A DNA stretch of 64,000 nucleotides. It comes from Octopus sinensis. Its lineage: Eukaryota. The notes beneath the pieces were generated by a model. The model searched no databases, was not told where the DNA came from, and saw nothing but the letters and a program-made list of their open reading frames with translations. The position numbers were made by a program, and so were the translations under genes. The stretch spans positions 69,998,001 through 70,062,000 of the forward strand of contig NC_042997.1 of assembly GCF_006345805.1 (NCBI RefSeq). The letters are read 5' to 3'. Shown here piece after piece: positions 30,224 through 59,640 of this stretch; position 1 is the first letter of the stretch; the number at the start of each line of letters is the position of its first letter.

Positions 30224-30426
30224 AGTTAATCCAAACACGAAACACAAAGAGAAAACAACAACGCGAGGACGTGGAACAAATATAGTATTATTGGACGCTC
30301 AAGAAGGAAGGAAGGGAAGAAGGAAGGTTTAACGTTTCGAGCGGAGCTCTTCGTCAGAAACATAGGAAAAGGGAAAATCCAGAGAAGGGAAGACGGAGGA
30401 AAAAAATCGCCAACGGTACACACGCG
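30224..30426 (-). mobile_element. Short non-coding hammerhead element in (TA)n (PLE pLTR-like)
   Basis: ~200 bp bounded by TA runs; contains the motif at 30327-30361. Confidence 0.75.
30327..30361 (-). ncRNA. Minimal type I hammerhead ribozyme motif
   Basis: Minus strand GTTT-CTGACGA-A-GAGC(tcc)GCTC-GAAA-CG-TT-AAAC; palindrome AACGTT replaces stem III. Confidence 0.8.
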
Positions 30427-31397
30427 ATATATATATACAATATTCTATAATTAGATACACAATTATAATCAGGGGTCAGTTAAGTGCCTCGCCACCTACA
30501 TAAAAAAAGTGTTTATATATATATATACATATCGCTTTTTATTTTCTCGTGTCTCATTTTGTTCACGTTTTTTTGACGTCCCATACCCATATATGCATGT
30601 ATATATACATATATATGCAGGTATGTACGAATATGTATGTATGTATATTTATTTGTATATATGTGTGTAAATTTATGTATACGTTTGATTACGCGTGCAT
30701 GTGGTTTGCGTTTATATTGTTCATCTTCAGGTCAGCCCTAAGATTAAATACATTTGAAATCAGAGACAGTCCAGATGCGACCCTACCATCTATATATCTT
30801 ATATTTCTTTTATTCTCATCATACAGTATATATTGCAGCAAGTCATCAAAGTTGTCTTTTCTATACAGCAGGATGTGACCTGAGGAAGATTTTGCTAGTA
30901 TTTTTAGCAGCTTGGGGTAAAGTAAATAAGAGGGCTCACTCGTTAACTCATTTCTCTATCGAGCGTGAGATTAAACTACGGAAATAGTGGTTTTTCATCG
31001 GCACCAACACGCGTGCTCCCTGGCCGACAACGACACCTTTTGAGGGAGGCTGCGCGACCGGCGAAACACGCCTGCTACCGCCTACATTCTCTTTATGTAA
31101 TTATCCTTTGTGAGAGAACGGGGTTTTAATGTGCACGAGTGAGTAAAATGAATGTTAGGTAGCGTGTAAAAATACTGTAAGTTTGCTTTTACGACTTTTC
31201 TGTCTAGTACAGCTGGCAATCGATTATCGCTTACCTCCTCCATTTTCAACTTTCGGCCATTATTCGTCTACATTTGCACACGTCCCTATTTGCATGTATA
31301 TATATGTAAGTAAAGAAAGTCCGTACGTAATACTTTCATATATATATATATATATATATATATAATATATATATATAATATATATATATATATATAT

Positions 31398-31657
31398 AAT
31401 TGGTATTTTTATATAAGCTTCAAGCTTATGGCAATCTCTGTGCAATGTCTAAGGAAAATAGTCTAATAACGGAGCATATAAGCCCCCGACAGAAAAAAGA
31501 AGCCTGAAGGCTTATATGCTCCGCTATTAGACTATTTTCCTTAGACATTGCACGGTGATCGCCATAAGTTTTAAGCTTATATTAAAAATACCATTACTAT
31601 TATTTACAAGATTGTAAAATTCGGCACGGTATAACAAAACCATTCGCACCGAAAGGA
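31398..31657. mobile_element. Fold-back hairpin element with one-sided tail in (TA)n
   Basis: Inverted arms ~31401-31484 / 31509-31593 (several mismatches), ~60-bp unpaired extension on the right, TA runs either side. Confidence 0.8.
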
Positions 31658-31702
31658 TATATATATATACATATATATATATATATATATATATATATAT
31701 AA

Positions 31703-32620
31703 CAAAAAAAATGGCACCTTTTCACCAAGGAAGGCCTGTGTTACGTTGACACAAGGCATGGTGCAGAATCCTGGATAAGTACCGCATTATCAAGCCTAAA
31801 CTTCTGCTCCATCCAAAGTAAATAAGTTTTTCAGGATCTCCACGCTTTGTCCCAATCTTCAAACCAGACTCAATGAATTTGTATCCCTGACATTTCTATC
31901 ACTCGCCATGGCTCCAAATAGCATTACAGAAGCAGGATTCTTAGTCTCAAACACACAGATACGTCAGAAGGGTTGTATGCAATCATTCGAGAATTTCTTC
32001 GATTCACCTCAGCGTCCACAATGAACTCTTTCCTCGTCCACAAACTCGGGAGTTTTTCCTACACTTTGATGCTTGATGAATGACAGAAGCTTTGGTCATC
32101 TCGTGGCTCTGATTGTTTTTACCTTAGCTGTTAGGAGGTGACGCCGTCGTCGTATACAGCTAGTCATGCCAAGATTCCTGTTCACAACTCTAGACAACAT
32201 GAAAAATGGCACATCGCGTTTCTTTGGAAGAGTTGTCATGGATATAGATGGGTTATCTTCAATCGAGCCTTTGATGCCAGCGAGAAACTCTGGATTGCGC
32301 TTGGAATTACTTCGAGTCTGGCGTTTTTTCTATAAATTTTTTCCACTTGTTTAAATTGTTTATATACACGATAAATTGTCGCTTTTGAAAGTTTTGTCAA
32401 CTTAACTTTATTGGCAGTGTGCTCAGCACCTGCTAAAACAACAATGGCGGGACGATTCTGTTGTTCCATAACTTTCTGTGATCGAATCAGTTCGCTATTT
32501 ACCTGAAAAATAAAGAAGAGGATTAGATTTTCAAGAAATCAAGGTTTTGTCAAAAACTGAAATATCAAACCCACTAAGTTAACTGCTTAAAATTGGTCCC
32601 AATTTATCTGCAAGACCCTG
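31703..32620 (-). mobile_element. Tc1/mariner transposon relic, truncated
   Basis: Terminus TA-CAGGGTCTTGCAG (minus) at 32620; HTH-like MEQQNRPAIVVL...LSKATIYRVYKQF; broken downstream frames. Confidence 0.7.
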
Positions 32621-33904
32621 TATAAACACACACACACACACACACACACACACACACACACACACACACACACACACACACACACACACACACATGCGCT
32701 ACGATTCTCCATGGCTGTAGTCTAATGACGCAAACAAGTAAAAGAAGAGACAGCTAGTTTGATAGATAAATAGATAGATAAATTTATGTACATAAGACTT
32801 GTGTGTTTTAATGTTGCTATTGGTTCAGTCGATAGAAGGAAAATTGAACAAGTAAAAGAACAATCTCCAGAGATTGTTATTCTGTTATTAGTGTTATGTT
32901 CAGGACAAAAGTGTCAATTCTATATAGCTCAGACAACCAGCTTATATATAGTTACCATCACGTGATAACTCCCAACTGTTTATTAAATTTTTAACATGTG
33001 ATCAACCAATGTTTTGACAGCTTTTAGCCATATATATATATATATATATATATATATATATATATATATATATATATATAATATATATATATATATATAT
33101 ACATATACATATATGAATATATATACATAAATATATATAATACATATTATATATATAATATATATATATATATATATGTGCACACATACATATGTATACA
33201 TGTATTAATGCATATGTATGTATGTATATGTAGGTATGTTGTATGTATGTATGCATGCATGTATGTATAATACGAGTGTTCGACTTAGAAAAAGTAATGA
33301 TTAATTCAAATAATTTTTATTCAGCGTCAGAGAAAAATAATCTTAATCGTTGTATAGTACCATATTTCAAATGTTATAACAGGTGTAAAACTCTACGTCT
33401 CTCATTAAGCTCTGATATTAATAGCACTAGATATCAAGCATCACGCCTATGCAAAGGAATGCGACTCACCGAGGAAGAAAATGAAGGGTTTAAGAATTCA
33501 ACAACACCACAGTCATTAACATAGACACTTAGATACATGCTTTTAACAAAATAATGATGCACTCCTCCCTAAAACATATCCCACAAGATAATATGTATGC
33601 ATATAATATATATATATATATATATATATATATATATATATATATATATACCACATATATATATAAATATAAATATATATATATATAAATAAATATATAT
33701 ATATATAGATATAAATATAAATATATAATAAATAAATAATATATATATATATATATATATATATATATAAACAACGCCAATTAAATGGGAGTTATCAAAT
33801 GATGGTAACTATATATAAGCTGGTTGTCCTGGTTGTATAGAGTTGATACTTTGGTCCTGAACATAACACTAATAACAGAATGATTGAACCAACGTATACA
33901 GAAC

Positions 33905-34385
33905 ATGGCACTCTCTCGGTTATGATGACGAGGATTCCAGTTGATCCGATCCACGGAACATCTTGCTCATGAAAGCAATGTCCAAATGGCTGAGCACTCC
34001 ACAAACATGCGTACTCTTAATGTAGTTCTCAGGGTGATTCGGCGTGACATGGAATGTGACAAAGGTAATCCTTTAGATTTACAGGTACAACTCAATTTTG
34101 TCAGCTGAATGGACTGGAGCAACATGAAATAAAGTGTCTTGTTCAACATCATCAAACAACTTAAGAAAGTAAAAAAAGTGAATGTTCCTTTCTTCTTCGG
34201 GTACAAAGTTTGAAATCTTCGGGGAAGAGATTAATCGATTACGTCAATCCCAGGGCCCAACCTGTGCCTATTTAACGAACCTGAAAGAAATGAAAGTCAT
34301 CGTGGAAGGAATTTGAGGGCAGAATGTCAAGAGCCAGGAGAGATGCAGTTAAGGCTTTTAAACAACTCTGCCAGTTCGCCGACCT
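33905..34385 (-). mobile_element. SINE-C fragment (33905-34160) followed by diverged SINE-B (34205-34385)
   Basis: Similarity to 25552-25720 and to family B copies. Confidence 0.7.
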
Positions 34386-58150: not shown

Positions 58151-58417
58151 ATATATATATATATATATATATATATATACTAAGCAATAAGGGTTTAGCA
58201 ACGAGTTGCCTTACCACATACCGAATTTAGAAATAGCAGTCAAAGGGTTATAGCTATTTCTTCTACTATTTCTTCTACTATATATATATAACTCTGAGTA
58301 ATAGCTTTTGCAATATTTCTGCTGCTTTTAAATAAAGCATATTACTCTACCTCTGGTATATATATATATATATATATATAAGGAGAGAGATGAGGGAGAA
58401 ATATATATAAATATATA

Positions 58418-58856
58418 CTCTTTTACTCTTTTACTATTTTACTTGTTTCAATCATTTGGATGTGTCCATGCTGGAGCACTGCCTTTAGTCGATCGAGCAA
58501 ATCGATCCCAGGACTTATTCTTTGTAAGCCTAATACTTATTGTATCGGTCTCTTTTGCCGAACCGCTAAGTTACGGGGACGTAAACACACAACATCGGTT
58601 GTCAAGCGATGTTATGGGTGGGGGGCGGGAGGCAAACACAGACACACAAACATATACACACATACATACATATATATATACATCTACATATATACGAAGG
58701 GCTTCTTTCAGTTTCCGTCTACCAAATCCATTCACATGGCTTGGGCACCCCGAGGCTATAGTAGAAGAAACTTGCCCAAGGTGCCACGCAGTGGGACTGA
58801 ACACGGAACCATGTAGTTGGTAAGCAAGCTACTTACCTCACAGCCACTCCTGCGCC
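58418..58856 (-). mobile_element. tRNA-SINE family A, full length
   Basis: Minus head GGCGCAGGAGTGGCTGTGAGGTAAGTAGC; tail AGTAAAAGAGTAAAAGAG. Confidence 0.9.
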
Positions 58857-58952
58857 TATATATATAATACATATATACATATATATATATATATACATAT
58901 ATACATATATATATATATATATATATATATATATATACATATAAATAATAAA

Positions 58953-59350
58953 TATTAGGAATATATCCAAATTTACAGGGAAAAAAAATCAGATTTAGGA
59001 TTAAATCCATTTTATAGTAAAATATTATAAAATATTATTTGAGACAAAACCACTATTTTGCAAAACAAACAAGGAAAGACTTAATCAATACATAAAATTA
59101 ATAAATAGTAAAAAAAAAACCGCCACTACAATCGTTTCTTGTCTTGATCGACAATCTTCAGGTGGACTTCCAATAATTCAGTTACAATTTGTAACTGAAT
59201 TATTGGAAGTCCACCTGAAGATTGTCGATCAAGACAAGAAACGATTGTAGTGGCGGTTTTTTTTGACTATTTATTAAATTTTATGTATTGATTAAGTCTT
59301 TCCTTGTTTGTTTTGGCAAAATAGTGGTTTTGTCTCAAATAATATTTTAT
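58953..59350. mobile_element. Fold-back hammerhead element family H1, second copy
   Basis: Same tail and arms as 39025-39426, different apex; TA runs on both sides. Confidence 0.9.
59211..59253 (+). ncRNA. Minimal type I hammerhead ribozyme (mirror on minus 59123-59165)
   Basis: Identical to the motif at 39291-39333. Confidence 0.88.
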
Positions 59351-59452
59351 ATATACATATATATATATATATATATATATATATATATATATATATATAA
59401 ATATATTATATATATATATATATATATATATATATATATATATATATATATA

Positions 59453-59640
59453 GGGAGAGTTCACGAAAAAAACAAAAGACGAAGACAGGTGGTGTAGAAA
59501 ACAAGCAGATGTATTAGTATAACGCTCAGGAATTGAAAAAGTCTTTTACGTTTCGAGCCTATGGTCTTTTACAGAAAGGGATACAGAAAAAAAAACAAGG
59601 AGAGAAACAAAGAGATAAAAAAATGTGGCTACCGATCTGG
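59453..59640 (-). mobile_element. Short element after (TA)n with degenerate hammerhead (59543-59578)
   Basis: Minus CTTT-CTGTAAA-A-GACC(atag)GCTC-GAAA-CG-TA-AAAG; layout parallels 30224-30426 (both have TATTA..ACGCTCA upstream on the plus strand). Confidence 0.6.

What the first reader, a model, noticed from the sequence alone, without database searches (positions are those of the whole stretch)
30224..59640. Dense population of unrelated hammerhead-ribozyme mini-elements in (TA)n microsatellites
Seen: intact CTGANGA/GAAA cores with paired stems I and II in five families that share no obvious sequence outside the core (30327-, 39291/59211, 39656, 47886, 58033), plus degenerate ones (33354-, 40993-, 59543-). 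Each lies in a 0.2-0.6 kb non-coding unit bounded by TA runs. Established: minimal type I hammerheads occur in the pseudo-LTRs of Penelope-like elements and in animal retrozymes. Inference: these are solo pLTRs or non-autonomous ribozyme retroelements mobilised by PLE RT/GIY-YIG proteins with (TA)n preference. This diversity in 30 kb suggests a large genome-wide system that coding-based annotation would miss.
Basis: partly seen in the sequence, partly recalled or inferred. Interest (0 to 1): 0.85.

Follow-up and report, generated by a model that had tools for sequence, protein, structure and literature searches.

The report
Spliced Penelope leader stubs carrying ribozymes
These are hammerhead-ribozyme motifs belonging to several Penelope-like jumping-gene families, a known kind of system, but hundreds of copies of one family lack an intron exactly at its splice sites and stop at one upstream point, so they were likely copied from the front end of the spliced messenger RNA, which would help explain why full-length Penelope elements keep their introns.

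Summary
In detail: 11 intact type I hammerhead motifs in 64 kb against 0.22 in shuffles; 10 of 11 lie within 200 nt upstream of a TA run. They belong to Penelope-like elements (PLEs). Two families (39291/59211, 58033) are Hydra-clade PLEs, one (30327) is the pLTR of a PLE with a CX4CxxC linker, and two (39656, 47886) are ORF-less tandem retrozyme-like units. All this is a known kind of system, and it is genome-wide (about 30 motifs per Mb).

The new part concerns the 39291/59211 family. Its long copies carry a GT-AG intron just upstream of the ribozyme. In the genome, 809 arms have it removed against 435 that keep the acceptor. 78 of 83 spliced arms stop within 24 nt of the donor. Head-to-head pairs share splice form (22 of 22) and combine one long with one short end (21 of 22).

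Likely reading: sense-strand spliced mRNA, copied twice from two internal start sites to its 5' end, leaves dead stubs, so only unspliced read-through RNA gives full elements. RNA and cleavage were not tested.

The parts
30224..30428 (-). Family A: solo leader/pLTR of a PLE with DKG motif and CX4CxxC linker (Neptune/Nematis type); hammerhead at 30327-30361, GUU/GUA site, 4-nt palindromic stem III
   Evidence: unit lies directly 5' of the element's 5' region in 21 of 30 loci, with the ORF following in 16
39017..39262 (-). Family B long arm (Hydra-clade PLE leader with about 90-nt tail); hammerhead 39192-39234; spliced junction (second donor) at 39239-39252
39263..39428 (+). Family B short arm; spliced junction at 39273-39286; hammerhead 39291-39333
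39457..39900 (+). Family C: 5'-truncated monomer of a 560-bp non-coding tandem unit (retrozyme-like); hammerhead 39654-39715, GUC site
   Evidence: period 557-569 bp, at least 23 cores in one array
46635..47116 (-). Family D left arm of a head-to-head pair; about 450-bp non-coding partial-tandem unit; hammerhead 46750-46819
47589..48070 (+). Family D right arm; hammerhead 47886-47955
   Evidence: relatives 74-87% identical, period 435-459 bp in 6 loci
51948..53200 (+).
   Evidence: same variant core in 17 of 30 family loci
57578..57941 (-). Family E long arm (Hydra-clade PLE 3' end with about 120-nt tail); hammerhead 57726-57813
57942..58147 (+). Family E short arm; hammerhead 58032-58119
58940..59187 (-). 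Second family B insertion, long arm; hammerhead 59123-59165; diverged spliced junction (first donor) at 59170-59181
59189..59347 (+). Second family B insertion, short arm; junction 59195-59206; hammerhead 59211-59253
59455..59645 (-). Decayed copy of an abundant A-like family whose core mostly reads CUGUNGA (U in place of A6); motif at 59542-59575
40680..41200 (-). Possible decayed hammerhead unit (motif 40992-41070) with a broken stem I; uncertain
   Evidence: no relative shown

Best explanation
The motifs are the hammerheads of several Penelope-like retroelement families inserted at (TA)n, and the shortest units (families A and B) are likely run-off cDNA copies of the 5' leader of the element's own sense mRNA, spliced in family B. 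Shown by sequence: in B the order is short first exon, GT-AG intron of 1.1-1.9 kb, hammerhead, two 3' end points about 90 nt apart, then the Hydra-type ORF. The stubs carry the exact spliced junction, stop about 23 nt upstream of the donor and mostly come as head-to-head pairs with one long and one short end. Inferred: the GIY-YIG domain cuts both strands of a TA run. The two TA ends pair with two TATA-like words in the RNA just before the ORF, and the reverse transcriptase copies from both. On an mRNA begun at the pLTR promoter it reaches the 5' end after 200-290 nt; the two cDNA ends anneal by microhomology and leave a small asymmetric palindrome without promoter or ORF. Only RNA that reads through a tandem copy, where this intron mostly stays in, would give a full element, so introns would survive in full-length copies although spliced RNA is copied at least as often. 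Family E is an ordinary randomly 5'-truncated Hydra 3' end. C and D are non-coding tandem units (retrozyme-like), likely moved in trans by PLE proteins. The palindromic stems III predict cleavage as dimers, if at all.
For: ORF links: A, B, E. Hydra motifs DKT, RWK-like and CxCX5C are present in B and E, as defined in PMC8557442 section 11. Spliced arms 809, acceptor-retaining arms 435, reversed-pattern controls 0. All 100 listed spliced matches fall into three exact donor-acceptor joins (79, 12, 9) although any 0-4 bases were allowed. 78 of 83 arms end 24 nt or less upstream of the donor and 13 end at exactly 23 nt, inside an initiator-like word (the Inr consensus is recalled). All 9 spliced arms with the variant donor sit in one starred branch (95/85) with 7 of 8 unspliced arms carrying that variant; spliced and unspliced arms share identical exon-2 sequences, so splicing recurred. 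Two-armed loci: 21 of 22 long+short, 1 unresolved; 22 of 22 same splice form. No spliced arm lies within 46 kb of an unspliced arm on C1-C2, against 30 spliced and 16 unspliced neighbour pairs. Family A: 0 of 30 solo copies run more than 1 base past a fixed point, and 7 of 30 end on it. In print: two internal RT start sites, both strands cut and extended, predicted dimer (PMC11167929); TSS and intron within the pLTR (PMC2377424, PMC8557442).
Against: No RNA, start-site or cleavage data. Some spliced arms do pass the 5' wall: 4 clear arms (one duplicated locus) plus 1 doubtful among 83, and L028 and L245/L246, so read-through RNA is sometimes spliced. Family E, also Hydra, shows no wall. The G often seen before the wall (9 of 13) is mostly explainable by the opposite arm, so a cap-derived G is not shown. 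Priming on TATA-like words differs from the non-homologous initiation reported for the anole element. Single-strand folding does not give the hammerhead fold for B; only E and F have z below -2.5. No autonomous partner was found for C or D. Counts are exact-match arms, not loci, and the family A sample was chosen by similarity to a near-complete leader.
Confidence: 0.72

Rival explanations
1. The spliced stubs descend from one or a few intron-less, non-autonomous master copies (SINE-like) that are transcribed and copied in their own right; the 5' wall is the master's boundary, not an mRNA end.
For: Five or six loci share one identical central junction. Non-autonomous PLE derivatives are known (PMC8557442). 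The tree is poorly resolved, with 5 of 96 inner branches starred.
Against: There are three distinct exact joins, and each donor subfamily has its own spliced form clustering with its own unspliced copies; starred branches force at least 9 changes for each of the two main spliced classes. The shared junction occurs with long and short arms swapped. The stubs lack sequence upstream of the wall.
Confidence: 0.13
2. The palindromes arise by fold-back self-priming of a single cDNA, or on an antisense template as proposed for rotifer PLEs, and the shared splice form of the arms follows from one arm being copied off the other.
For: Arms always share splice form. Self-priming on an antisense template was proposed to explain head-to-head repeats and intron retention (PMC3846280, passages).
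Against: An antisense template cannot lose a sense GT-AG intron. In fold-back the long arm must reach furthest upstream, yet the short arm does so in about 5 loci (L283, L291, L314, L327, L332). Junction ambiguity weakens this count.
Confidence: 0.1
3. The units are ordinary 5'-truncated 3' ends of PLEs, or recombination-made solo pLTRs, and the missing intron is a DNA deletion.
For: This is what family E looks like. Heavy 5' truncation with an inverted copy and a one-sided tail is the described PLE pattern (PMC8557442).
Against: For B the deletion ends fall exactly on GT and AG at three donors with no shared end sequence, and lengths pile up at one point.
Confidence: 0.04
4. The motifs are chance matches in AT-rich, microsatellite-rich DNA.
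For: Rfam gave no hammerhead among the 150 rows shown of 166. Most monomer folds are unremarkable.
Against: 11 against 0.22 expected. The families are multi-copy. There are compensatory changes in stems II and III, and the position next to PLE ORFs is fixed.
Confidence: 0.01

Closest known systems
Hydra-clade Penelope-like elements (Craig et al. 2021, PMC8557442; abstract, section 11 and passages read)
   Same: Families B and E: DKT, RWK-like motif, CxCX5C linker, C-terminal GIY-YIG, hammerhead in the pLTR, (TA)n insertion, inverted 5'-truncated copy, tail on one end only.
   Different: Described Hydra elements are generally under 3 kb. B spans about 9 kb with both pLTRs, has a 1.1-1.9 kb leader intron and tails of 90-120 nt (30-40 described for PLEs), and most of its counted arms are spliced stubs.
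Drosophila virilis Penelope (PMC2377424 passages; PMC4209133 parts 1-2 of 4)
   Same: Start site and spliceosomal intron inside the pLTR, with the intron's 3' end next to hammerhead helix I; both spliced and unspliced RNA exist.
   Different: There the intron is 75 bp, lies 46 nt from the start and is described as retained on transposition. Here precisely spliced genomic arms outnumber acceptor-retaining arms 809 to 435.
Anole Poseidon element PAc (Frangieh et al. 2024, PMC11167929; parts 1-2 of 4 read)
   Same: Two internal RT start sites that define the tail; both DNA strands cut and extended; AT-rich target; predicted protein dimer.
   Different: PAc starts 111-118 nt inside the ORF at a site not homologous to the target. 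B's two end points lie before the ORF, at TATA-like words matching the TA target.
Metazoan non-LTR retrozymes (PMC7229834 passages; bioRxiv 10.64898/2026.07.22.740005 part 1 of 5 and passages)
   Same: Families C and D: non-coding, AT-rich, head-to-tail units with one type I hammerhead each; arrays of at least 23 units.
   Different: Units are 560 and about 450 bp, longer than the 170-400 bp range I recall (about 300 bp average, 350-390 bp in mussel, in the passages read). They show PLE-type inverted copies, two 3' end classes and (TA)n ends. Circular RNA was not tested.
Minimal hammerheads of PLEs (Cervera and de la Pena 2014, PMC4209133; Lunse et al. 2017, title seen in reference lists only)
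   Same: Extra base after position 9, short palindromic stem III, thousands of scattered singles and opposite-strand pairs; U3-A8 core variant as in Schistosoma (family F).
   Different: A family-wide U-for-A6 core (59543 family) was not in the passages read; its activity is unknown.

Membership tests
Type I (minimal) hammerhead ribozyme | CUGANGA and GAAA core, UH site, paired stems I and II | tested here: met
   11 motifs against 0.22 in shuffles
Type I (minimal) hammerhead ribozyme | Covariation and palindromic stem III | tested here: met
   12 of 16 motif groups palindromic; E stem III has two perfect palindromes (40 and 15 copies) with a wobble intermediate (5); double change in D stem II. 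Pairing was partly required by my descriptor.
Type I (minimal) hammerhead ribozyme | Self-cleavage as monomer or dimer | not testable with these tools
   needs in vitro transcription; monomer folds mostly unremarkable
Hydra-clade PLE (families B, E) | DKT in place of DKG, RWK motif, CxCX5C linker, C-terminal GIY-YIG | tested here: met
   against the definition read; for E the RT part lies inverted beside an E arm, so the link is by adjacency
Hydra-clade PLE (families B, E) | Hammerhead in pLTR, (TA)n insertion, partial tandem / inverted copy / one-sided tail | tested here: met
Hydra-clade PLE (families B, E) | Placement in the Hydra clade of an RT tree | not tested
   no named reference sequences were at hand; 162 unnamed homologues found
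Neptune/Nematis-type PLE (family A) | DKG motif, CX2-5CxxC linker, C-terminal GIY-YIG with Cys/His motif, pLTR preceding the ORF | tested here: met
   Pfam gave no hit for this ORF; Neptune versus Nematis not resolved
Non-LTR retrozyme (families C, D) | Head-to-tail non-coding units, each with a type I hammerhead | tested here: met
   C. D: partial tandems only, periods in 6 of 30 loci
Non-LTR retrozyme (families C, D) | Accumulation of monomeric circular RNA | not testable with these tools
   no RNA data for these families
Non-LTR retrozyme (families C, D) | Derivation from or mobilisation by an autonomous PLE | tested here: inconclusive
   PLE protein fragments in 2 of 34 C loci and 1 of 30 D loci, none shown to be contiguous
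Non-LTR retrozyme (families A, B, E) | Independent tandem non-coding unit | tested here: not met
   these continue into PLE ORFs

The most novel reading that the evidence does not exclude
The genome holds a natural record of PLE reverse transcription on spliced sense mRNA. One RNA molecule is copied twice, from two fixed internal sites to its capped 5' end, by a dimeric RT-endonuclease primed on both strands of a TA cut. Splicing of the leader intron then sorts RNAs into translated messages, which yield only dead ribozyme stubs, and unspliced read-through RNAs, which yield live elements. This would answer why PLEs keep introns without an antisense template, explain head-to-head repeats, one-sided tails and solo pLTRs in one scheme, and suggest that many scattered animal hammerheads are such leader stubs.
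Probability: 0.5. Interest if true: 0.78.

Novelty: new variant of a known kind. Interest (0 to 1): 0.55.

Why it matters
The abundance of hammerheads is expected for an invertebrate rich in PLEs and is of modest interest. The spliced stubs matter because how PLEs keep spliceosomal introns through an RNA stage is stated as unresolved (PMC8557442: significance unknown; PMC3846280: antisense template proposed). Here hundreds of insertions can only have come from sense, spliced RNA, and their ends mark a probable start site and two RT start sites to the base. This gives ready substrates and clear predictions for 5' RACE and in vitro target-primed reverse transcription, and a simple genome test (spliced versus unspliced pLTRs) for any PLE with a leader intron. 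My two searches aimed at this and one on twin priming listed no paper reporting spliced genomic PLE copies. Arkhipova 2003 and 2006, Lunse 2017, Repbase notes and supplements were not seen and may mention them.

Tried and rejected
Rfam scan: only microRNA-type matches to microsatellites and palindromes among the 150 of 166 rows shown; no hammerhead. A strict descriptor found only the four family B arms, because it lacked the extra base after position 9.

An exact 34-nt upstream pattern for B matched only its own locus; a looser one worked. The suspicion that family A is a stand-alone SINE was dropped.

A 6.1-kb repeat of family E on C1 includes host flanks and is a duplication, not a tandem element. 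In one search, 14 of 54 E arms read '239' because of an indel in my reference and 3 are the reference itself, so those lengths are lower bounds.

An intron-like GT-AG stretch in family C was present in 72 of 72 contexts, never removed.

Expression: no RNA holder listed. Contigs of three guessed-RNA runs and one large run, laid on the exon-2/ORF part only, gave no informative joint, so splicing in RNA remains open.

A cap-derived G was considered and left unproven. Pfam missed the PLE RTs. The Dong/R4-type LINE at 9777-13589 was considered as mobiliser and rejected: it sits in (AAT)n, and the stubs continue into PLE ORFs.

Lunse 2017 is not held. Earlier scan notes: none.

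
Full report
Setting. The window is G000:C1:69998001-70062000 of a 2.72-Gb genome rich in microsatellites. Size and repeat content look like an octopus genome; this is recalled, and no call names the organism. PLEs are listed among Octopus vulgaris repeats, with no mention of ribozymes in the main text (PMC13282606, passages).

Checking the observation. A descriptor asking for a perfect core, stem I and stem II of 3 bp or more and a UH site finds 11 motifs, against 0.22 +/- 0.41 in 60 local shuffles. 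Ten lie in the finding, at six insertion sites, and all five named families match the stated coordinates. Four sites are head-to-head pairs, 92-99% complementary. Forty evenly spaced 10-kb samples gave 13 motifs against 1.17 +/- 1.07, two of which look like chance. That is about 30 per Mb, or 80,000 genome-wide (39,000-143,000), so this window is about 3.6 times richer than average. TA runs lie within 250 nt downstream of 7 of 13 sampled motifs (background 19.9%, P = 0.007) and within 200 nt of 10 of 11 in the window. Across 1.68 Mb of held loci, 16 motif groups had two or more contexts and 12 had palindromic stems III. Family E shows two perfect palindromes linked by a wobble form, and family D a double change in stem II. 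Of the three degenerate motifs, 59543 belongs to an abundant family with U at position 6, 40993 is uncertain and 33354 is unsupported.

Families. First-look candidate counts, which are not copy numbers, were 1755 (A), 185 (B), 1166 (C), 2080 (D) and 920 (E); 40 were scored and 30 loci taken for each. [quoted passage not shown] E (58033; 206 exact arms) runs upstream, with scattered truncation points, into a GIY-YIG ORF with a CxCX5C linker; an RT part with DKT and an RWK-like motif lies inverted beside one arm. These are the Hydra-clade features (PMC8557442 section 11). C (39656) is a 557-569-bp non-coding unit in arrays of at least 23, with two classes of 3' end about 95 nt apart. D (47886) is an older unit of about 450 bp in partial tandems. 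Neither C nor D was tied to an ORF. The window also holds a broken PLE 3' end at 51948-53200 whose hammerhead has the U3-A8 core, shared by 17 of 30 relatives and known from Schistosoma (PMC4209133).

Family B. Long copies encode a Hydra-type ORF (DKT, RWK-like, CxCX5C; 162 unnamed homologues). One copy on C4 spans about 9 kb with an intron-bearing pLTR at each end, and the ORF starts shortly after the long 3' end point. The pLTR holds a GT-AG intron of 1.1-1.9 kb ending 13 nt before the ribozyme core, with two donors 4 nt apart; one subfamily has lost the first donor. Both insertions in the window carry the joined form, one from each donor. Genome-wide there are 809 joined arms and 435 arms keeping the acceptor, with 0 in reversed controls. 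All 100 listed joined matches are one of three exact joins (79, 12, 9). I fetched 70 loci covering most of those 100. Of 83 distinct arms, 78 end 24 nt or less upstream of the donor and 13 end at exactly 23 nt; 4 (one duplicated locus) run 176-380 nt further and 1 is doubtful. Two more loci pass the wall by a few bases. In a tree of 135 arms, with 12 unclassified arms and one locus left out, the 9 spliced arms with the variant donor group with 7 of 8 unspliced arms bearing it (95/85), and identical sequences span spliced and unspliced classes; the tree is otherwise weak. The 27 pair rows reduce to 22 loci after dropping 5 duplicate or cross rows: 21 are long+short, 1 is unresolved, and all 22 share splice form. 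On C1-C2 no spliced arm is within 46 kb of an unspliced one. Family E pairs are long+short in 12 of 13 loci. Family A solo copies also stop at one point (0 of 30 pass it by more than 1 base). Several A loci join that point to different places inside the ORF, as template jumps from an RNA 5' end would. The 3' end points of A, B, C and E fall at TAT or TATA-like words of the element.

Mechanism. Shown: anatomy, exact joins, length wall, arm pairing. From the literature: start site and intron in the pLTR; two internal RT start sites, cutting and extension of both strands, predicted dimer, ribozyme not needed for insertion in vitro; weak, dimer-dependent cleavage of minimal hammerheads. Inferred: the wall is the start site; both strands of a TA cut prime on one sense RNA, or on sibling RNAs of one source; run-off at the 5' end and annealing of the two cDNAs give the palindrome; spliced messages therefore leave only stubs, while read-through RNA gives whole elements. 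An antisense template (PMC3846280) cannot produce the joined arms. Fold-back alone does not fit the roughly 5 loci where the short arm reaches further upstream. A spliced master element is the main remaining rival.

Limits. No RNA evidence was obtained and nothing was cleaved. Monomer folding supports only E and F. Clades rest on motifs, not on a tree with named references. Counts are exact-match arms.

Verdict. A real and correctly read finding of a known kind (PLE hammerheads and retrozymes), with one unexpected feature, the spliced leader stubs, that bears on an open question. I found no report of it, with the unseen papers named above as a caveat. Interest 0.55.

Noticed in passing
window 9777-13589 (+): Uninterrupted 1270-aa reading frame with an RVT_1 domain (E 5e-27) between (AAT)n runs; looks like a Dong/R4-type LINE (clade recalled from motifs); a decayed 3' piece lies near 55670-56350.
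   Followed up: partly
window 39930-40430 (-): TA-bounded repeat family (14 hits in held loci) with a CUGAWGA word downstream rather than upstream of GAAA and an acceptor-like site before a GAAGG...CCUUC stem; possibly a permuted or splice-dependent hammerhead; unresolved.
   Followed up: partly
window 31397-31657: Another asymmetric head-to-head palindrome in (TA)n with a one-sided tail of about 60 nt and no ribozyme core; probably a further PLE stub.
   Followed up: partly
window 16766-16807 (+): Intact hammerhead of a further multi-copy family, outside the finding, next to (AAT)n rather than (TA)n.
   Followed up: partly
window 46635-47116 and 47589-48070: The two family D arms are 99% identical although all other relatives found are 74-87% identical; another repeat fills the 472 nt between them. 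A young rare subfamily or gene conversion.
   Followed up: no
L192, L194, L196, L218: Family A leader joined at its 5' boundary to different points inside the PLE ORF, giving pLTR-partial ORF-pLTR units; suggests template jumps as a source of short non-autonomous units.
   Followed up: partly
L253 570-2363; L187, L188: Hydra ORFs of families B and E carry long asparagine-rich stretches between RT and endonuclease, as described for rotifer PLEs (PMC3846280).
   Followed up: no
L181 3850-6945: The family A-type autonomous copy has a 3-kb CA-rich 3' region before an A-like end whose hammerhead lacks stem II.
   Followed up: no
window 29003-29731 (-) and 17251-17649 (+): Decayed Tc1/mariner transposase pieces (HTH_Tnp_Tc3_2 E 1e-12; weak DDE_3 and HTH_48).
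   Followed up: partly
window 32879-32974 and 33786-33881: 96-nt inverted pair, 90% complementary, around the 33.0-33.8 kb TA block; not identified.
   Followed up: no
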